NCBI RefSeq assembly: GCF_018350175.1
Contig: NC_058368.1
Coordinates: 83,330,001-83,394,000 of the forward strand
Length of the DNA stretch: 64,000 nucleotides
DNA from: Felis catus
Lineage: Eukaryota
Reading direction: 5' to 3'
The notes beneath the pieces were generated by a model. It had not been told where the DNA came from. It did not search any database and worked only from the letters and a program-made list of their open reading frames with translations. The position numbers and the translations under genes are program-made. Positions 25,061-64,000 of this stretch are shown piece after piece. Within the stretch, counting starts at the first letter, position 1, and each line of letters starts with the position of its first letter.

Positions 25061-26098
25061 CTACAAAAATTAATATATTTTACAGAGAAGAATTAATAAT
25101 GGTGAGATTTGAGATTATTTTAAATGTTGGTTAAGATTTTGAGGCATATTACATTTAATAATAAAAGAAGAGGGAAGATGGTGGCACAGGAGGGCGCTGG
25201 GTTCACCTTGTCCTGCTGATCACTTAGATTCCACCCACATCTGCCTAAATAACCCAGAAAACCACCAGAAGACTAGCAGAATGGACTCTCCAGAGCCAAG
25301 TGTAGACAAAAGGCCCAAGGAAGAGGGTAGGAAGGGCAGAGAGGCAGTGCATGCTACACGGACTGGTGGGAGGGAGCTGGGGTGGTGGAGGGGCAGCCCA
25401 CCCAACAAGGTGGAACCCCCGAGTCTGGCTAGCAAAAGTGGAGGGGCCAGACTGCATGAGTTCTGACAGCCAGTGGGACTTAACATCTGGAATGTTATAA
25501 GTCAACAGCGCTGTTCGGAGAGCGGAAGGGCAGGAGGACACCAGGAGGGAGAGGTGTTGAGTCATGGAAGACAGAGCTCAGCTCCATGGGGAACAAAGGC
25601 GCTGGCAAGCACCATCTTCCTCTCCCATCCCCCAGATGAAATCCCAAAGGGAACCAGTTCCCATCACGGAAATTGCTTGCACCTCACAAACACCCAATGC
25701 TGTGCTTCTGTGGATCCATCCCTCTGACGGGTCTTCCTCCCTCCTGGTGCTACAGGGCCCCTACCCCAGGGGACCACCAAGGGCAAAGTAAGCTAAGCCT
25801 GCCCCTCCCGTCCCTGTGCACCTTGCAGATCCACTGTAGCTAATACGCCAGATCCCATCGAAGCAGCAACACAAGCCTGGCAATGTGCATGCAGCCCAGA
25901 CAGGGGCCACACCACTCCACAGTGAGTCCTGCCCTTGGGAGAGGGGAAGATAAGGTACACACCAGTCTAACTGTGGCCCCAGTGGTGGGCTAGGGGCAGA
26001 CATCTGGTCTGACTGAACCCCGCCCACCAACACAAGTTACTCCAGACAGCACAGGGTAAGTGCCCTGCAGTTTGGCGTCACCCCAGGGACTACCCAAA

Positions 26099-26981
26099 AT
26101 GACAAAACGGAAGAACTCTCCTCAAAAGAAACTCCAGGAAGTAACAACAGCTAACGAATTGATCAAAAACGATTTAAGCAATGTAACAGAACAAGAATTT
26201 AGAATAATAGTCATAAAATTATTTATTGGGCTTGAAAAAGGCATAGAGGATAGCAGAGAATCTATGGCTACAGAGACCAATGGACTATGAAATAAGTCAA
26301 GAGGAGGTTAAAAAAGCCGTAAATGAGGTGCAAAATACAATGGAGGTGACCACAGCATGAATTGAAGAGGCAGAGGAGAGAATAGGTGAATCAGAAGATA
26401 AATGGAAAAAAGAGGAAGCTGAGAAAAAGAGAGATAAAAATAGCCAGGAGTATGAGGGGAGAAATAGAGAAGTGATGCTATCAAGCACAACAATATCCGT
26501 ATAATAGGAATTTCAGAAGAGGAAGAGAGAAAGAAAGGGGCTGAAATGTACTTGAACAAGGCATAGGTGAGAACTTCCCTGATCTGGGGAAGGAAAAAGG
26601 CATTGAAATCCAAGAGGCACAGAGAACTCCCTTCAGACATAACCTGAATCCATCTTCTGCACAATATATCATAGTGAAACTGGAAAAATACAAGGATAAG
26701 GAGAGAATTCTGAAAGCACCTAGGGATAAACAGGACCTAACATACAAAGGTAGACACATAAGAGTAGTAGCAGACCTAAATACTGAAACTTGGCAAGGCA
26801 GACGGAATGGCAGGAAATCTTCAATGTGATGAACAGAAAAACATATGCAGCCAAGAATCCTTTATCTATCAAGTCTGTCATTCAGAACAGATGAAGAGAT
26901 AAACGTTTTCCCAAACAAAAACTGAAGGAATTCACCACCGCTGAACCATTCATACAAGAGATCTTAAGGGGGATTCTGTGA
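26099..26981 (+). pseudogene. L1 ORF1p (RNA-binding protein), disrupted
   Basis: MTKRKNSPQKKLQEV... start; stops and frameshifts. Confidence 0.9.
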
Positions 26982-27049
26982 GTGAAATGTTGCAAGGACC
27001 ACAAAGGACCAGAGACATCACTACAAGCACGAAGCCTACAGACATCACA

Positions 27050-30000
27050 ATGACTCTAAACCCTTGTCTTTCAATAATAACACTGAATGGAAATGGACTA
27101 AATGCTCCAAACAAAAGACATAGGGTGTCAGAATGGATTAAAAAAGAGAAGAAGAATAAGACCCATCTATTTGCTGTCTACAAGAGACTCATTTTAGGCC
27201 TGAGAACACCTGCAGATTGAAAGTGAGAGGAGGCAGAACTATCTATCATGCTACTGGAAGTCACAAGAAAGTTGGGGTAGCCATACTTATATAAGAGAAA
27301 CTAGACTTTAAATTAAAGGCTGTAACAAGAGATGAAGAAGGGCATTATATAATAATTACAGGGTCTATCCACCAGGAAGAGCTAACAATTATAAATGTCT
27401 ATGTGCCAAATACGGGAGCCCCCAAATATGTAAAATAATTAATCACAAACATAAGCAACCTTATTGATAAGAATGTGGTAATTGCAGGGGATGTTAATAC
27501 CCCACTTACAACAATGGATAGATCATCTAGACACAGGATCAATAAAGAAACAAGGGCCCTGAATGATACATTGGATCAGATGGACTTGACAGATATATTT
27601 AGAACTCTGCATTCCAAAGCAGCAGAACATACTTTTTTCCCAAGTGCACATGAAATATTCCCCAAGATAGATCACATACTGGGTCACAAAACTGCCCTTA
27701 ATACGTATAAAAGAATTGAGACCATACCATGCACACTTTCAGACCACAATGCTATGAAACTTGAACTCAACCACCGGAAAAAGATTGGAAAACCTCCAAA
27801 AGCATGAAGGTTAAAGAACACCCTCCTAAATAATGAATGGGTCAACCAGGCAATTAGACAAGATATTAAAAAAAATTGGGGCACCTGGGTGACTCAGTCG
27901 GTTAAGCCTCTGACTTCAGCTCAGGTCACAATCTCACAGTTCGTGAGTTCGAGCCCCGCTTCGGGCTCTGGGCTGATGGCTCAGAGCCTGGAGCCTGCTT
28001 CCGATTCTGTGTCTCCCTCTCTCTCTCTGCCCCTCCCCCGTTCATGCTCTGTCTCTCTCTGTCTCCAAAATAAATAAAAGTTAAAAAAAATTTTTTTAAG
28101 TATATGGAAACAAATGAAAATGCAAATACAACAATCCAAATGCTTTGGGTTGCAGCAAAGGTAGTCCTGAGAGGAAAATACATTGCAGTCCAGGCCTATC
28201 TCAAGAAACGAGAAAAAATCCCAAATACAAAACCTCGCAGCACACCTAAAGGAAATAGAGGCAGAACAGTTAAGACACCCCAAATCCCAGCAGAAGAAGA
28301 GAAATCTTAAGGATCAGAGCAGAAATAATATAGAATCTAAAAAATACTGTAGAGCAGATCAACTTGGAAACAAGTTTTGGTTTTTTGAAAAAAAACCAAA
28401 ATTGTTAAAACTCTAGCCAGGCTTCTCAAAAAGAAAATGGAGATGACCGAAATATATAAAATCATGAATGAAATTGGAATTATTACAACCAATCTTTCAG
28501 AAATACAAGCAATTTTCAGGGAATAATATGAAAATTATATGCAAACTGAAACGGGAAGAAATAGGAAACTTGAACAGACCCATGACCAGCAAAGAAATTG
28601 ACTAAGTTATCAAACATCTTCCAACAAATCAGAGTCCAAGACCAAATGGCTTCCCTGAGGAATTCTACCACACATTTAAAGCAGAGATAATACCTACCCT
28701 CCTCAAGCTATTCCAAATAATAGAAAGGGAAGGAAAACTTCTGGACTCATTCTATGAAGCCAGAATTACTTTGATTCCTAAACCATACAGAGACCCAGAA
28801 AAAAAAAAAAAACTACAGGCCAATATCCTTAATGAATACAGATGCAAAAATTCTCAATAAGATACTAGCAAATCGAATTCAACAGCATATAAATAGAATT
28901 ATTCACCATGATCAAGTGGGATTCATTCCTGGGATGCAGGGCTGGTTCAACATTCACAAATCAATCAACGTGATACATCACATTAGTGAAAGAAAAGGTA
29001 AGAATCAGATGATCCTGTCAATCGATGCAGAAAAAGCATTTGACAAAATTCAGCATCCTTTCTTAATAAAAACCCTCAAGAAAGTCGGAATAGAAGGAAC
29101 ATACTTAAACATCATAAAAGCCATTTATGAAAAGCCCACAGCTAATATCATCCTCAATGGGAAAAACTGAGAGTTTTCCCCCTGAGATCAGGAACACAAC
29201 AGGGATGTTCACTCTCACCACTATTGTTTAACATAGTGTTGGAATTTTTAGCATCAGCAATAAGACAACAAAAGAAATTCAAAGGCATCAAAATTGGCAA
29301 AGAAAAAGTAAAACTTTCATTTTTTGCAGGACATGATATAATACATGGAAAACCCAATAGATTCCACCAAAAGTCTGCTAGAACTGATACATGAATTCAG
29401 CAAACTCGTAGGATACAAAATCAATGTACAGAAGTCAGTTGCACTCTGACACACTAATAATGAAGCAACGGAAAGAAAAATAAAGAAACTGATCCCATTC
29501 ACAATTGTACCAAGAAGCATAAAATACCTAGGAATAAACCTAACCAAAGATGTAAAAGATCTGTATAGTGAAAACTATAGAAAGCTTATGAAGGGAATTG
29601 AAGAAGATATAACAAATGGAAAACATTCCATGCTCATAGATTGGAAGAATAAATGTTAAAATGTCAATACTACCCAAAGCTATCTACACATTCGATGCAA
29701 TCTATATCAAAATTGCACCAGTATTATTCTTGAAGCTAGAACACGCAATCCTAAAATTTGTATGGAACCACAAAAGACCCATAATATCCAAAGAAATGTT
29801 GAAGAAGACCAAAGCGGGCAGCATCACAATCCCAGACTTTAGCCTCTACTACAACGCTGTAATCATCAAGACGGTATGGTATTGGCACAAAAACAAACAC
29901 ATAGACCAATGGGATAGAATAGAGACTCCAGAATTAGACCCACAAAAGTATGCCCAACTCATCTTTGACAAAGCAGGAAAGAATATCCAATAGAAAAAAG

Positions 30001-31003
30001 ACAGCCTCTTTAACAAATGGTGCTGGGAGAGCTGGACAGCAACATGTAGAACAATGAAACTAGACCACTTTCTTACACCATTCACAAAAATAAACTCAAA
30101 ATGGATAAAGGACCTGAATGTGAGACAGGAAACAATCAAGAGGAGATGGAAGAGAAAGCAGGAAAAAACCTCTCTGGCCTCAGCTGCAGCAATTTCTTAC
30201 TTGACACGTCCCCAAAGGCAAGGGAATTAAACACAAAAAGGAACTATAGGGATTTCATGAAGATAAAAAGGTTCTGCACTGCAAGGGAAACAATCAACAA
30301 ATCTAAAAGGTAACTGATACAAAGGGCAAAGATATTTGCAAATGACATATCAGACAAAGGGTTAGTATCCAAAATCTATAAAGAACTCACCAAACTCCAC
30401 ACCTGAAAAACAAATAATACTGTGAATGAGAAGAAAACATGAATACACTTCTCTAAAGAAGACATCCAGATGGCCAACAGGCACATTAAATGATGCTCAA
30501 CGTTGCTCCTCATCAGGGAGCTACAAATCAAAACCACGCTCAGATACCACCTCACGCCAGTCAGAGTGGCTACAATGAACAAATCAGGAGACTATGGATG
30601 CTGGCGAGGATGTGGAGAAACGGGAACCCTCTTGCACTGTTGGTGGGAATGCAAACTGGTGCACCCACTCTGGAAAACAGTGTGGAGGTTCCTCAAAAAA
30701 TTAAAAATAGATCTTCCCTATGGCCCAGCAATAGCACTTCTGGGAATTCACCCAAGGGATACCGAGGTGCTGATGCATAGGGGCACTTTTACCCCAATGT
30801 TTATAGCAGCACTTTCAACAAAGGTAAATTATGGAAAGAGCCTAAATGTCCATCAACTGATGAATGGATAAAGAAATTGTGGTTTATATACAGAATGGAA
30901 TACTATGTAGCAATGAGAAAGAATGAAATATGGCCTTTTGTAGCAACATGGATGGAACTGGAGAGTGTTATGCTAAGTGAAATAAGTCATACAGAGAACC
31001 TGA
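27050..31003 (+). pseudogene. L1 ORF2p (APE endonuclease / reverse transcriptase), disrupted
   Basis: MTLNP...[27 protein letters not shown]...HCWWEC; SINE insertion, frameshifts, and a small deletion in the FADD codons (~29325). Confidence 0.92.
27877..28095 (+). mobile_element. SINEC inside L1 ORF2
   Basis: ggggcacctgggtgactcag head, CT tract, A-tail. Confidence 0.93.
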
Positions 31004-31607
31004 AAAACTTAAGACCATGAGGGAGGAGAAGGAAAAAAAAAGGTTAGGGAGGGAGGAAGCCAAAACATAAGAGACTCTTTAAAACTGAGAACAATCTGAG
31101 GATTGATGGGGGGTGGGAGGGAGGGGAGGTTGGATGATGGGTTTTGAGGAGGGCACCTGTTGGGATGAGCACTGGGTGTTGTATGGAAACCAGTTTGACA
31201 ATAAATTTCATATTAAAAATAATAATAATAAAAGGATACTTTTTAAAGCATGAGCAGAAAGCCAAAATAGTGCAAACAAAATGTTAATGATATTTTTTAG
31301 CTGTTTCTAGCTGAATTATTCTTTAAAATCTCAAGGGGATTTATCAACAGACCTCTTAACCCTCTCCTCGAAGAGGCATATTAAAATCAAGAATGATGTC
31401 ATTTATCTGCTTCTGTTATAAACCTAACCTGGTCATATTTCATTGCCCATCTGGATGAAGCTTACAGTTGCATCTGATGATTGATTCAGTCAGAGAAGTG
31501 ATAAACCATGAAAAAGCCAAGGGGTGATTATTGTCCTTGACTTGTTCTGCTTCTGACCATTCTATTAGCTATTGAAACTATTTCTACGATTATTTTACCT
31601 ATCATCT

Positions 31608-56292: not shown

Positions 56293-56856
56293 TAAGACAC
56301 ATGTTGATTGAAAATAAAGGGAGAGAAAACCATTTATTATGCTAATGATAAAAGAACAATATCATGCTAAAGCTAAAAGAACAATACTTATATCAAACAA
56401 AAGAGATCTTAAACAAAGAGTGTAGCAAGGACAAAGGAGGACACTACATAATGATAAAGGGAACAATCCACCAAAAGATAACAATAGTAAATATTTATAC
56501 ACCCAGCATGGATACACCCAAATACATAAAACAATTATTAACAAACATGCAATAAGAAGTCAATGGTAATACAATGATAGCAAGGGAATTTATACCCTAC
56601 TTATATCAATGCATAGATCATCCAAACAGAAAATTACGAAAAGAGTGGTTGTGAAAAGCACATTGGATCAGATTGATCTACCAGATAAATTCAGAATATT
56701 CTATCCAAAAACAGTGGGATACACATTATTATACACATTAGTTCCAGGGCACATGAAATATTCTCAAGAAGAGATTACATGTTGGACAGAAAGTGAGTAT
56801 CAACATATTCCATGTACTTTTTCCAATGACAACACTATGAAACTAAAATCAACCAT

Positions 56857-56895
<39 letters not shown>

Positions 56896-57288
56896 AGAAA
56901 AAAATCTTCAAAGAACACAAATACATGGAGGTTAAGTAATATGCCACTAAACAATATTGGGTTAAAGAATAAATCCGGGGGTGGCTGGGTGCCTTAGTCA
57001 GTTGTATGTCCGACTCTTGGTTTTGGCTCAGGTCAGGGCCTCATGGTTCATGGGTTCAAACTCCTTATTGGGATCTTCACTGTCAGTGCATAGCCTACTT
57101 AGGATTCTCTCTCTCTCCCTCTCTCTCTCTCTCTCTCCCCCCCTTCTCTCTCAAAATAAATAAATAAATAAACTTAAAAAAAGACATACAAGAGGAAATA
57201 AAACAATACATGGAGATGAATGGAAATGAAAACCCAATGGTCCAAAATCTTTGCGGTTGAGGAAAAGCTCCTCTAAGAGGGAAGATTA
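56293..57288 (+). mobile_element. Older L1 ORF2 fragment (host of the young L1; left part); SINEC at ~56977-57180
   Basis: DKGGHYIMIKG; STLDQIDL; ends ctctaagagggaagatta and resumes at 63770. Confidence 0.82.
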
Positions 57289-58213
57289 GGAACAGGGAAG
57301 ATGGCAGCATAAGAGGACACTGGGCTCACTGTGCGTCCTGCTGATCACTTAGATTCCACCTACACCTGCCTAAATAACCCAAAAAACCGCCAGAGGATTA
57401 GCAGAATGGATTCTCCAGAGCCAAGCGCAGAGGAGAGGCCCACGGAAGAGGGTAGGAAGGGCACCAAGGAGGAGAACGCTGCACAGACTGGCGGGAGGGA
57501 GCCGGGCGGAGGGGCAGACTGCCGGCCAAGCAGAGCCCCCGAGTCTGGCTTGCAAAAGCGGAGGGGCCAGACGGAATGTGTTCCGACAGCAAGCCGGACT
57601 TAGCATCTGTGAGGTCATAAGTTAACAGCTCTGCTTGGAAAGCAGGAAGGCTGGAGGAGAAAGGGAGGGAGAGTTGCTGAGCCCCTGGACAACAGAGCTC
57701 AGTTTGGCGGGGAACAAAGGAGCTAGCCAGCACCATCTCCATCGCCCATCACCCAGCCAAAATCCTAAAGGGAACCAGTTCCTGCCAGGGAATTTGCTTG
57801 CACCGGGCAAACACCCAACACTGTGCTTCTGCGGAGGACCCCTACAGCAGTGGGTCTGACTCCCTCCCGCTGCCACAGGGCCCCTCCTAAAGTGGATCAC
57901 CTTAGGAGAAGTGAGCTAAGCCTGCCCCTCCTGCCCCCGTGCACCTTGCCTACCCACCCCAGCTAATACGCCAGATCCCCAGCACCACAAGCCTGGCAGT
58001 GTGCAAGTAGCCCAGACAGGCCACACCACCCCACAGTGATTCCCACCCCGAGGAGAAAGGAAGAGAAGGCACACACCAGTCTGACTATGGCCCCAGCGGT
58101 GGGCTGGGGGCAGACATCAGGTCGGACTGCAGCCCCGCCCCCCAACTCCAGTTATACACCACAGCACAGGGGAAGTGCCCTGCAGGTCCTCACCACGCCA
58201 GGGACTATCCAGA
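57289..58213 (+). promoter_or_regulatory. L1 5'UTR (internal Pol II promoter region)
   Basis: GC/CpG-rich; begins with aagatggc, a YY1-type motif known at L1 5' ends. Activity not shown. Confidence 0.65.
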
Positions 58214-59099
58214 ATGATGCAACGGAAGAATTACCCTCAAAAGAATCTCCAGGAAATAACAACAGCTAGTGAACTGATCAAAAAGGATTTAATATAACAA
58301 AAGTGAATTTGGAATAATAGTCATAAAATTAATCACTGGGCTTGAAAACAGTATAGAGGACAGCAGAGAATCTCTTGCTACAGAGATCAAGGCACTAAGG
58401 AACAGTCACGAGGAGCTGAAAACCACTTTAAACAAGATGCAAAATAAAATGGAAACGTCCACGGCTCGGATTGAAGAGGCAGAGGAGAGAATAGGTGAAC
58501 TAGAAGATAAAATTATGGAAAAAGAGGAAGCTGAGAAAAAGAGAGATAAAAAAATCCAGGAGTATGAGGGGAAAATTAGAGAACTAAGTGATACACTAAA
58601 AAGAAATAATATACGCATAAATGGTATCCCAGAGGAGGAAGAGAGGGAAAGGTGCTGAAAGTGTACTTGAAGAAATAATAGCTCAGAACTTCCCTGATCT
58701 GGGGAAGGAAAAAGGCATTGAAATCCAAGAGGCAAAGAGAACCCCTTCAGACGTAACGTGAATCGATCTTCTGCATGACATATCATAGTGAAACTGGCAA
58801 CATACAAGGATAAAGAGAAAATTCTGAAAGCAGCAAGGGATAAACGTGCCCTAACCTGTAAAGGGAGACCTATAAGACTCCTGACTAATCTCTCTTTTGA
58901 AACTTGGCAGGCCAGAAAGGCATGGCAGGAGATCTTCAATGTGATGAACAGAAAAAATATGCAGGCGAGAGTCCTTTATCCAGCAAGTCTGTCATTTAGA
59001 ATAGAAGGAGAGATAAAGGTCTTCCCAAACAAACAAAAACTGAAGGAATTTGTCACCACTAAACCAGCCCTACAAGAAATCCTAAGGGGAATCCTGTGA
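58214..59099 (+). pseudogene. L1 ORF1p, frameshifted
   Basis: Fragments ARIEEAEERIGELEDK and WQEIFNVMNRKNMQARVLYPASLSF. Confidence 0.92.
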
Positions 59100-59149
59100 G
59101 ACAAAGTACCAGAGACATAGCTAAAAGCATAAAACATACAGACATCACA

Positions 59150-62100
59150 ATGACTCTAAACCCATATCTTTCTATAATAACAGTGAATGTAAATGGACTA
59201 AATGCACCAACCAAAAGACATAGGGTATCAGAATGGATAAAAAAAACAAGATCCATCTATTTTCTGTCTACAAGAGACTCATTTTAGACCTGAGGACACC
59301 TTTAGATTGAGAGTGAGAAGATGGAGAATTATTTATCATGCTACTGGATGCCAAAAGAAAGCTGGAGTAGCCATACTTATATCAGACAAACTAGACTTTA
59401 AATTAAAGGCTGTAACAAGAGATGAAGAAGGGCATTATATAATAATCACAGGGTCTATCCATCAGGAAGAGCTAACAGTTATAAATGTCTATACGCCGAA
59501 TACGGGAGCCCCCAAATATATAAAACAATTACTCATAAACATAAGCAACCTTATTGATAAGAATGTGGTAATTGCAGGGGACTTTAACACTCCACTTACA
59601 GAAATGGATAGATCATCTAGACACATGGTCAATAAAGAAACAAGGGCCCTGAATGATACATTGGATCAGATGGACTTGACAGATATATTTAGAACTCTGC
59701 ATCCCAAAGCAACACAATATATTTTCTTCTCGAGTGCACATGGAACATTCTCCAAGGTAGATCATATACTGGGTCACAAAACAACCCTTCATAAGTATAC
59801 AAGAATTGAAATTATACCATGCATACTTTCAGACCACAATGCTATGAAGCTCGAAATCAACCACAGGAAAAGTCTGGAAAACTTCCCAAAGCATAGAGGT
59901 TAAAGAAAACCCTACTAAAGAATGAGTGGGTCAACCGGGCATTTAGAGAAGAAATCAAAAAGTATATGGAAACAAACGGAAATGAAAATAAAACAATCCA
60001 ATCGCTTTGGGAATGCAGCGAAGGCAGTACTGAGAGGAACATACATTGCAATCCAGGCCTATCTCAGGAAACAAGAAAAATCCCAAATACAAAATCTAAC
60101 AGCACACCTAAAGGAAATAGAAGCAGAACAGCAAAGACAGTCTAAACCCAGCAGAACAAGAGAAATAATAAAGATCAGAGCAGAAATAAACAATATAGAA
60201 TCTAAAAAAACTGTAGAGCAGATCAACGAAACCAAGAGTTGATTTTTTGAAAAAATAAACAAAATTGACAAACCTCTAGCCAGGCTTCTCAAAAAGAAAA
60301 GGGAGATGACCCAAATAGATAAAATCATGAATGAAAATGGAATGATTACAACCAATCCCTCAGAGATACAAACAATTATCAGGGAATACTATGAAAAATT
60401 ATATGCCAACAAACTGGACAACCTGGAAGAAATGGAAAAATTCCTAAACACCCACACTCTTCCAAAACTCAATCAGGAGGAAATAGAAAGCTTGAACAGA
60501 TCCATAATCAGTGAAGAAATTGAATCGGTTATCAAGAATCTCCCAACAAATAAGAGTCCAGGACCAGAAGGCTTCCCAGGGGAGTTCTACCAGACGTTTG
60601 AAGCAGAGATAATAACTATCCTTCTCAAGCTATTCCAAGAAATAGAAAGGGAAGGAAAACTTCCAGACTCATTCTATGAAGCCAGTATTACTTTATTCCC
60701 AAACCAGACAGAGACCAGTAAAAAAAGAGAACTACAGGCCAATATCCCTGATGAATATGCATGCAAAAATTCTCAATAAGATACTAGCAAATCGAATACA
60801 ACAGCGTATAAAAAGAATTATTCACCATGATCAAGTGGATTCATTCCTGGGATGCAGGGCTGGTTCAACATTCACAAATCAATCAACGTGATACATCACA
60901 TTAATAAAAGGAAAGATAAGAACCATATGGTCCTGTCAATGGATGCAGAAAAGGCCTTTAACACAATTCAGCACCCTTTCTTAATAAAAACCCTTGAGAA
61001 AGTCGGGATAGAAGGAACATACTTAAAGATCATAAAAGCCATCTATGAAAAGCCCACAGCTAACATCATCCTCAATGGGGAAAAACTGAGAGCTTTTTCA
61101 TTGAGGTCAGGAACACGACAGGGATACCCACTCTCACCGCTGTTGTTTAACATAGTGTTGGAAGTTCTAGAATCATCAATAAGACAACAAAAGGAAATCA
61201 AAGGTATCAAAATTGGCAAAGATGAAGTCAAGCTTTCTCTTTTTACAGATGACATGATACTATATATGGAAAATCCGATAGACTCCACCAAAAGTCTGCT
61301 AGAACTGATACATGAATTCAGCAAAGTTGCAGGATACAAAATCAATGTACAGAAATCAGTTGCATTCTTATACACTAACAATGAAGCAACAGAAAGACAA
61401 ATAAAGAAACTCATCCCATTCACAATTGCAGCAAGAAGCATAAAATACCTAGGAATAAATCTAACCAAAGATATAAAAGATCTATATGCTGAAAACTATA
61501 GAAAGCTTATGAAGGTAATTGAAGAAGATATAAAGAAATGGAAAGACATTCCCTGCTCATGGATTGGAAGAATATTGTCAAAAATGTCAATACTACCCAA
61601 AGCTATCTACACATTCAATGTAATCCCAATCAAAATTGCACCAGCATTCTTCTCAAAACTAGAACAAACAATCCTAAAATTCATATGGAACCACAAAAGG
61701 CCCCAAATAGCGAAAGTAATTTTGAAGAAGAAGACCAAAGCAGGAGGCATCACAAGCCCAGACTTTAGCCTCTACTATAAAGCTGTAATCATCACGACAG
61801 CATGGTATTGGCACAAAAACAGACACATAGACCAATGGAATAGAATAGAAACCCCAGAACTAGACCCACAAATGTATGGCGAACTCATCTTTGACAGCGC
61901 AGGAAAGAACATCCAATGGAAAAAAGACAGTCTCTTTAACAAATGGTGCTGGGAGAACTGGATAGCAACATGCAGAAGGTTGAAACTAGACCCCTTTCTC
62001 ACACCATTCACAAAAATAAACTCAAAATGGATAAAGGACCTGAATGTGAGACAGGAAACCATCAAAACCCTAGAGAAGAAAGCAGGAAAAGACCTCTCTG

Positions 62101-62968
62101 ACCTCAGCTGTAGCAATCTCCTACTCGACACATCCCCAAAGGCAAGGGAATTAAAGCAAAAATGAATTACTGTGACATTATGAAGATTAAAAGCTTCTGC
62201 ACAGCAAAGGAAACAACCAACAAAACTAAAAGGCAACCAACGGAATGGGAAAAGATATTTGCAAATGACATATCGGACAAAGGGCTAGTATCCAAAATCT
62301 ATAAAGAGCTCAGCAAACTCCACACCTGCAAAACAAATAACCCAGTGAAGAAATGGGAAGAAAACATAAATAGACACTTCTCTAAAGAAGACATCCGGAT
62401 GGCCAACAGGCACATGAAAAAATGCTCAACGTCGCTCCTTATCAGGGAAATACAAATCAAAACCACACTCAGACATCACCTCACGCCAGTCAGAGTGGCC
62501 AAAATGAACAAATCAGGAGACTATAGATGCTGGAGAGAATGTGGCAAAACGGCAACCCTCTTGCACTGTTGGTGGGAATGTAAATTGGTGCAGCCACTCT
62601 GGACAACAGTGTGGAGGTTCCTCAGAAAATTAAAAATAGACCTACCCTATGACCCAGCAATAGCACTGCTAGGAATTTATCCAAGGGATACAGGAGTGCT
62701 GATGCATAGGGGCACTTGTACCCCAATGTTTATAGCAGCACTCTCAACAATAGCCAAATTATGGAAAGAGCCTAAATGTCCATCAACTGATGAATGGATA
62801 AAGAAATTGTGGTTTATATACACAATGGAGTACTACATGGCAATGAGAAAGAACAAAATATGGCCCTTTGTAGCAACGTGGATGGAACTGGAGAGTGTGA
62901 TGCTAAGTGAAATAAGCCATACAGAGAAAGACAGATACCATATGGTTTCACTCTTATATGGATCCTGA
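59150..62968 (+). pseudogene. L1 ORF2p (EN, RT, Cys-rich domain), several frameshifts and stops
   Basis: [27 protein letters not shown] (normally FADD), YLG, CWRECG...HCWWEC. Confidence 0.95.
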
Positions 62969-63226
62969 GAAACTTAACAGAAACCCATGGAGGAGGGGAA
63001 GGAAAAAAAAAGAGGTTGGAGTGGGAGAGAGCCAAAGCATAAGAGACTCTTAAAAACTGAGAACAAACTGAGGGTTGACGGGGGATGGGAGGGAGGGGGG
63101 GGGTGGGTGATGGGTATTGATGAGGGCACTTTTTGGGATGAGCACTGGGTGTTGTATGGAAACCTATTTGACAATAAACTTCACATATTGAAAAAATAAA
63201 TAAATAAAAAATAAAATAAAATAAAA

Positions 63227-63755
63227 TTCAGTAGACTTTCAAGTTATGTTCTACCAGGAGTTATTTTTGCATACACCTGCATTCCCCTCAGGAGATTGAT
63301 TCTTTATATAAACACTTTGCCATTAATTTATATCTTTGTCCAAACCCCTATGAGCATCTGTATCTACATATCAATACTCATACCATATTTATATCTATCC
63401 ATTTTATGTAACTAATGAATAGTTTACATTAAATTGTTTAAAGATCTTGAGATTACCTAGATGCCCTTAGCAATGTTGATGTTTCTCCTCTTTGGGGATT
63501 TGTACCTGCCATTCCTTTAGCTATGTTAATTTGAGAAAGCCAACTTTCTCTATCAGTCTGTCTGTTGCCTTATCAGTAATACTGGGATAACAGTACCTTC
63601 TGCCCATATCACAGGATGTTATTGAATCTTTAAAGCACATTCATGAATGTTTTTGAGTAAGATAACATATTTAAATAAGCTTCTAAAATTCCAGCATGCA
63701 AATGCACCATTATTGATTTAGAAAAAAATAAATGAAATCACATTATCAAAAAAAA
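63227..63755 (+). other. L1 3'-transduced unique DNA with its own poly-A signal and tail
   Basis: Lies between the L1 tail and the downstream TSD copy; AATAAA at 63727-63732; A-run from 63748; TSD aagagggaagatta at 57275-57288 and 63756-63769. Confidence 0.9.
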
Positions 63756-63769
63756 AAGAGGGAAGATTA

Positions 63770-64000
63770 TAGCAATACAGGCCTACCTCAATAAGAAAAA
63801 AACAAAAACAACACCCCAAAACAATAATTTAATTTTATACCAAAAGGAACTAGAAATATAATAAACAAAGACCAAAGGCAGTAGAAGGAAGGAAATAATA
63901 AAGGCTACAGCAGAAACGAATAAAACAGAAAGTCCCCTCCACTCCTCAAAAAATAGAACAGATCAATTAATCCAGAAGCTGGTTCTTTGAAGTATCAATA
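63770..64000 (+). mobile_element. Host older L1 ORF2, right part
   Basis: tagcaatacaggcctacctc continues the L1 sequence interrupted at 57288. Confidence 0.85.

What the first reader, a model, noticed from the sequence alone, without database searches (positions are those of the whole stretch)
57275..63769. Full-length L1 carrying a ~520-bp 3' transduction
Seen: the 14-bp TSD aagagggaagatta (57275-57288) does not recur after the L1 A-tail (ends 63226) but at 63756-63769. In between lie 521 bp of non-L1 DNA (63227-63747), an AATAAA 15 nt before a second A-run, and then the interrupted host L1 resumes exactly. Known: L1 read-through of its weak poly-A signal mobilises 3' flanking DNA. Inference: this segment is a barcode for the source (master) L1 locus.
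Basis: partly seen in the sequence, partly recalled or inferred. Interest (0 to 1): 0.72.

Follow-up and report, generated by a model that had tools for sequence, protein, structure and literature searches.

The report
Old LINE-1 with copied flanking DNA
A dead, full-length LINE-1 jumping gene landed here carrying 521 bases copied from next to its previous home; that stretch still exists at a second place in the genome, which makes this a well-supported but ordinary example of a known process.

Summary
Observation confirmed. One exact 14-bp duplication (57275-57288 = 63756-63769) brackets a full-length but broken L1 (57289-63226), 521 bp of non-L1 DNA, an AATAAA 15 nt before a short second A-run, and nothing else. 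The older host L1 ORF2 resumes in register.

In 2 of 2 laid organism-A runs, a second version of the segment (5 differences in 118 nt) runs on about 425 letters upstream. In 1 of the 2, a contig leaves the segment at 63748 and continues 1,017 letters without the A-run or duplication. That is the expected donor locus. A run of another organism bridges segment, duplication and host, so the insertion predates that split.

The donor probably has no young L1 upstream ('parentless'). This is inferred from contig continuity; its letters were not seen. No sibling copies and no empty allele were seen, so 'master' element is not shown.

Verdict: partnered L1 3' transduction (about 0.88), a textbook process; parentless donors are the majority case in dogs. 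Low interest.

The parts
56384..57288 (+). Older host L1, ORF2 region, left half (holds a CA repeat and an older SINE at about 56976-57190)
   Evidence: 56384-56696 is 26.6% diverged from the inserted L1's paralogous region; 57191-57286 aligns to 59947-60042; SINE region read
57275..57288 (+). 5' copy of the 14-bp target-site duplication; bottom-strand nick site reads TCTT/AG, 4 of 6 to the canonical TTTT/AA, both departures transitions
   Evidence: canonical site as given in PMC13141329
57289..58213 (+). L1 5' UTR, complete at its 5' end
   Evidence: same start as the second full-length L1 at 25168
58214..59099 (+). L1 ORF1, broken by stops and frameshifts
   Evidence: pieces; Pfam PF17490 (E 6e-24) and PF02994 on 58779-59096
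59150..62968 (+). L1 ORF2 (endonuclease and reverse transcriptase), broken into at least six pieces; longest open stretch 444 codons
   Evidence: Pfam PF03372 (E 2e-15) and PF00078 (E 8e-33)
62969..63189 (+). L1 3' UTR, ending at the same point as 3 other L1 3' ends in the window
   Evidence: 4 matches of the terminal motif, this one included
63190..63226 (+). First A-rich tail, with 4 AATAAA hexamers; read as the parent element's genomic tail, transcribed through
   Evidence: origin inferred
63227..63747 (+). Transduced segment, 521 bp, non-L1, no long ORF (62 codons at most), with a second copy elsewhere
63727..63732 (+). AATAAA polyadenylation signal, 15 nt before the second A-run
63748..63757 (+). 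Second A-run (8 A plus the first 2 A of the duplication); the donor-type contig stops matching at 63748
   Evidence: X5 record 27
63756..63769 (+). 3' copy of the target-site duplication
63770..64000 (+). Older host L1 ORF2, right half, in register with the left half

Best explanation
A single target-primed reverse transcription event. Steps: (1, inferred) a full-length parent L1 at another locus was transcribed from its 5' UTR; the polymerase read through its A-rich tail and its AATAAA signals into 521 nt of flanking DNA. (2, shown as sequence; use inferred) The RNA was cut and polyadenylated 15 nt after the AATAAA at 63727. (3, shown) The RNA was copied into an endonuclease-type site in an older L1's ORF2, which left one 14-bp duplication around L1 plus flank. 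(4, shown in contigs) The flank's original locus persists and carries neither the second A-run nor the duplication. (5, inferred, about 0.7) The parent L1 is no longer at that locus in the two individuals laid, most simply because it never became fixed. (6, shown) The daughter is present in a second organism and has since decayed in both ORFs. It is inert today; its use is as a lineage marker.
For: One duplication only, host in register. Complete L1 with EN, RT and ORF1 domains. X5 record 27 (1,437 letters) matches 63329-63748 with 1 difference, then 1,017 letters unlike this locus, so it stops at the first A of the second run. X1 record 2 (544) and X5 record 26 (542) match 63241-63358 with 5 differences and run on 426 and 424 letters, whereas this locus's own contigs (records 1 and 25, 156 letters, 0 differences) end 35 letters upstream of 63238, inside the A tail. 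X1 record 3 (63329-63785, 0 differences) bridges segment, A-run, duplication and host. X18 record 9 (organism B, 63456-63850) bridges it too, with 5 substitutions and one 3-nt insertion (1.3%, CI 0.4-2.9). Orientation of the minus-strand records rests on the 30-letter overlap 63329-63358 expected of k=31 contigs (Logan preprint, passages). Parentless donors: 17 of 18 (PMC7980453) and 24 of 27 (PMC13141329) in dogs.
Against: The letters of the donor's flanks were not shown (22 of 74 loose ends and 32 of 766 pieces listed). So 'no L1 upstream' and 'upstream and downstream pieces are one locus' are inferences. The downstream continuation was seen in 1 of 2 organism-A runs. The donor-type contig differs from the window at only 1 of 420 positions, against 5 of 118 in the left part; P(at most 1 in 420) is 0.002 at 2% true divergence. 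I attribute this to contigs collapsing variants and to runs having been ranked by likeness to the window, but did not verify it. Positions 63200-63237 were skipped as repeat, so the exact 5' junction was not compared. No empty allele was seen.
Confidence: 0.88

Rival explanations
1. Two events: the L1 inserted first; later a 5'-truncated retrocopy of a polyadenylated RNA from the donor locus inserted into the end of the L1's A tail.
For: A tail of TAAAA units offers endonuclease sites in the same orientation (inference from the canonical site). A donor without an L1 upstream is what this predicts (inferred).
Against: It needs its own duplication: the only matches between the two sides of the segment are A-runs of at most 6 nt. 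New poly-A, duplication and leftover old tail would all have to fit into 8 As. The best RNA or RNA-guess holders reach only 0.22-0.62 of the words (6 of 24 rows), which does not suggest a well-expressed 3' end.
Confidence: 0.06
2. One event with a template switch: reverse transcription began on a cellular polyadenylated RNA from the donor locus and jumped to the tail of an L1 RNA.
For: Fits the single duplication and a donor with no L1 upstream (inferred).
Against: A parent that never fixed explains the same facts and has been shown directly in canines (PMC13103737, passage). Known chimeras mostly put the cellular RNA 5' of the L1 part (recalled, not checked). No evidence of expression.
Confidence: 0.03
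3. The second version in the contigs is a diverged allele of this same locus or an assembly artefact, so the donor is not demonstrated (transduction could still be true).
For: Contigs are simplified graphs that collapse variants. No listed piece spans the whole stretch. The uneven divergence along the segment is unexplained in detail.
Against: The same second version (same 3 listed changes, lengths 544 and 542) appears in 2 of 2 organism-A runs from different studies. 4% over 118 nt is high for alleles. A separate contig leaves exactly at the polyadenylation point.
Confidence: 0.03

Closest known systems
Partnered L1 3' transduction (human surveys cited in PMC13141329; PMC9311842)
   Same: Full-length L1, first tail, unique flank, downstream AATAAA, second tail, one duplication around all. 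Length 521 bp lies within the 8-997 bp reported for 268 human events (median 63; passages). About 15% of full-length human L1s carry one, as cited second-hand in PMC13141329.
   Different: Longer than the human median. The element here is old, broken and shared between two organisms, not a young polymorphic insertion. It is nested in an older L1.
'Parentless' 3' transductions of canines (PMC7980453, PMC13141329, PMC13103737)
   Same: Donor sequence present elsewhere with, as inferred here, no adjacent L1: 17 of 18 and 24 of 27 cases in dogs. One case was resolved by finding the parent in another haplotype.
   Different: Those are dimorphic insertions whose parents still segregate. Here the daughter predates a species split, so the parent is probably lost for good or survives only in another lineage. 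Absence of the parent was not read directly.
Orphan transduction or processed retrocopy nested in an L1 tail
   Same: Unique DNA ending in AATAAA plus A-run.
   Different: No duplication of its own; it shares the L1's duplication.

Membership tests
Partnered L1 3' transduction | L1 body with intact 3' end and A tail | tested here: met
Partnered L1 3' transduction | Non-L1 DNA between the L1 tail and a second A tail | tested here: met
   no L1 match in a window full of L1 copies; strand skew unlike L1; no repeat library was available to name it
Partnered L1 3' transduction | One target-site duplication enclosing L1 and extra DNA, none directly after the L1 | tested here: met
Partnered L1 3' transduction | Polyadenylation signal shortly before the second tail | tested here: met
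   AATAAA 15 nt upstream
Partnered L1 3' transduction | Endonuclease-type target site | tested here: met
   TCTT/AG, 4 of 6 to the canonical site
Partnered L1 3' transduction | Donor copy elsewhere that continues without the second tail | tested here: met
   downstream continuation in 1 of 2 organism-A runs, upstream continuation in 2 of 2; map position and letters not seen
Partnered L1 3' transduction | Parent L1, or its empty site, directly upstream of the donor copy | tested here: inconclusive
   contig runs about 425 letters upstream without breaking, which argues for unique DNA, but the letters were not shown
Partnered L1 3' transduction | Empty allele at the insertion site | tested here: inconclusive
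   not seen in 4 runs; loose ends before 63756 are mixtures of paralogous L1s (agreement 0.67-0.85)
Master (hot) source element | Several daughters share the transduced tag | tested here: inconclusive
   only two versions among the 32 of 766 pieces shown; contigs show presence, not absence
Independent retrocopy in the L1 tail | Its own target-site duplication | tested here: not met
   only A-runs of at most 6 nt; decay of an all-A duplication cannot be excluded

The most novel reading that the evidence does not exclude
The segment is the only trace of a 'ghost' source L1: a parent that was active before organisms A and B split, produced a daughter that spread to both, and itself never fixed. 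The donor site, filled or empty across felids, would then be a marker of incomplete lineage sorting and would date an extinct active element.
Probability: 0.6. Interest if true: 0.3.

Novelty: new member of a known kind. Interest (0 to 1): 0.18.

Why it matters
It matters little on its own: 3' transduction is a standard L1 behaviour, the element is dead, and the moved DNA shows no coding frame or known RNA family. Its modest value is as a two-locus marker. Donor and daughter copies date the insertion without a consensus, and the donor site shows whether the parent L1 survived in any lineage. My paper searches (listings only) showed no survey of L1 transductions in felids, so a genome-wide catalogue of such cases might be new; a single case is not.

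Tried and rejected
No own genome was held, so the donor could not be mapped. An exact 22-base pattern from the segment found 0 stretches in metagenome contigs and 0 in viral contigs. By recall, about 63495-63690 looks like a decayed MIR SINE; a 17-base pattern gave 55 metagenome loci, but 0 of 55 align beyond the seed (best 23 nt; flank identity at most 0.37), and nhmmer found no relative in the window. The MIR reading stays untested. Rfam gave 1 match at E 2.6, far below its gathering score: chance. Low-share rows that I did not lay (X15-X17, X20) are not used as evidence of expression; X18 and X19 are only guessed to be RNA and are used for presence only. X19 (organism C) covers 63418-63740 with the same listed variants as X18 but does not reach the junction, so it cannot be assigned to donor or daughter. 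A depth-based divergence of 1.8% is not relied on, since contig depth is no copy number. Rejected: segment inserted first and L1 later at its 5' edge (the L1 has no duplication of its own). PMC156586 was not held; nothing is taken from it. No earlier finding overlaps the place or the sequence. No absolute age is given, because no rate was obtained here.

Full report
1. Observation. The 14-mer occurs exactly at 57275-57288 and 63756-63769 and nowhere else without mismatch; it cannot be extended, and about 8e-6 chance matches are expected in 800 bp. Nothing longer than 6 nt links the 5' flank to the DNA right after the L1 tail. The two flanks, aligned separately to paralogous ORF2 sequence, cover 59947-60042 and 60033-60251, so the host element resumes in register. 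The bottom-strand nick site is TCTT/AG.

2. The inserted element. 57289-63226 is a complete L1. Its 5' end matches that of a second full-length L1 at 25168. Pfam finds the ORF1 RNA-binding domains, the endonuclease and the reverse transcriptase in 3 of 6 pieces scanned; the other 3 gave no hit above a curated cut-off. Both frames are broken. The nearest paralogue in the window differs at 33 of 542 columns (6.1%), the host L1 at 26.6%.

3. The segment. 63227-63747 is 32% GC, has no CpG, lacks the A-rich strand bias of L1, has no frame over 62 codons and no relative in the window. It has no credible Rfam match. AATAAA lies 15 nt before the second A-run.

4. Looking for the donor. No genome was held. 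Of 24 public runs listed, 20 hold the segment or part of it; 14 organism-A runs hold 0.96-0.98 of its words. I laid 4 of the 24 on 63200-63880 at 80% likeness. In both organism-A runs two contigs converge on the same 30 letters, 63329-63358. One is identical to the window and ends inside the L1's A tail (records 1 and 25). The other has 5 differences in 118 letters and continues 426 or 424 letters upstream (records 2 and 26). Downstream, X1 record 3 runs through A-run and duplication into the host. X5 record 27 instead leaves at 63748 and continues for 1,017 unlike letters. Logan contigs are k=31 graph paths in which each 31-mer occurs once and variants are collapsed (bioRxiv 10.1101/2024.07.30.605881, passages). 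The simplest reading is two loci sharing the segment: this one, and a donor that lacks the second A-run and the duplication.

5. Is the parent still there? Probably not. This locus's contig breaks 35 letters upstream of 63238, in the tail, as contigs do at young repeats; the donor's contig runs about 425 letters on. A parent of similar age should have broken it likewise. The letters were not shown, so this is inference (about 0.7). In dogs such parentless donors are the rule: 17 of 18 (PMC7980453, passages) and 24 of 27 (PMC13141329, passages), and one was resolved by finding the parent on another haplotype (PMC13103737, passage).

6. Age. Organism B carries the same junction, with 5 substitutions and a 3-nt insertion in 395 letters (1.3%, CI 0.4-2.9). 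Donor and daughter differ by 3-5 of 118 (CI 0.5-9.6%). These figures agree with an insertion older than the A-B split. I give no age in years.

7. Results against. The donor-type contig differs from the window at only 1 of 420 positions in the right part, improbable at 2% divergence (P 0.002). Collapse of variants plus the ranking of runs by likeness to the window would explain it, but I did not verify this; gene conversion or a third copy remain open. The downstream continuation was seen in 1 of 2 runs. Only 32 of 766 pieces and 22 of 74 loose ends were listed, and 63200-63237 was skipped as repeat. No empty allele and no sibling copy were seen, so 'master' is unproven.

8. Rivals. A later retrocopy dropped into the L1 tail lacks its own duplication and must fit tail, duplication and leftover into 8 As (0.06). 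A template-switch chimera fits, but is not needed (0.03). An allelic or artefactual second version is unlikely given two studies and a branch exactly at the polyadenylation point (0.03).

9. Comparison and verdict. It works like, and meets 6 of 8 listed criteria of, a partnered L1 3' transduction; the other 2 were inconclusive. Its length is within the human range of 8-997 bp (PMC9311842, passages). Searches for felid L1 transduction papers (listings only) showed none, within a library that lacks most subscription journals; no supplements were read. Earlier notes of this scan report the same kind of structure in this genome and in a primate (unchecked). It is a real, unusually well-supported, ordinary example. 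Interest 0.18.

Noticed in passing
window 25156-31234: A second full-length L1 of an older related subfamily (11-16% diverged from the focal one), with a 12-bp duplication (25156-25167 / 31223-31234) directly after its tail and a SINE at about 27872-28098. It has no transduction and serves as an internal control.
   Followed up: partly
window 57275-57304: The duplication resembles the L1's own 5' end: 9 identical bases (57294-57302 = 63759-63767), and the other full-length L1 starts with a 12-of-14 match to it. The microhomology was not used at the junction; probably chance.
   Followed up: partly
window 63495-63690: By recall this part of the segment looks like a decayed MIR SINE, which would mark it as old genomic DNA. 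Tests with the tools at hand gave nothing.
   Followed up: partly
window 63329-63748: Uneven donor-daughter divergence in contigs (1 of 420 here, 5 of 118 to the left): assembly collapse or gene conversion.
   Followed up: partly
window 63468, 63470, 63532, 63708: Organisms B and C share three substitutions and a 3-nt insertion relative to the window.
   Followed up: no
window 1-64000: The window is dense in L1 pieces of several ages and carries more than ten SINE copies 85-97% alike, with several nested insertions.
   Followed up: no
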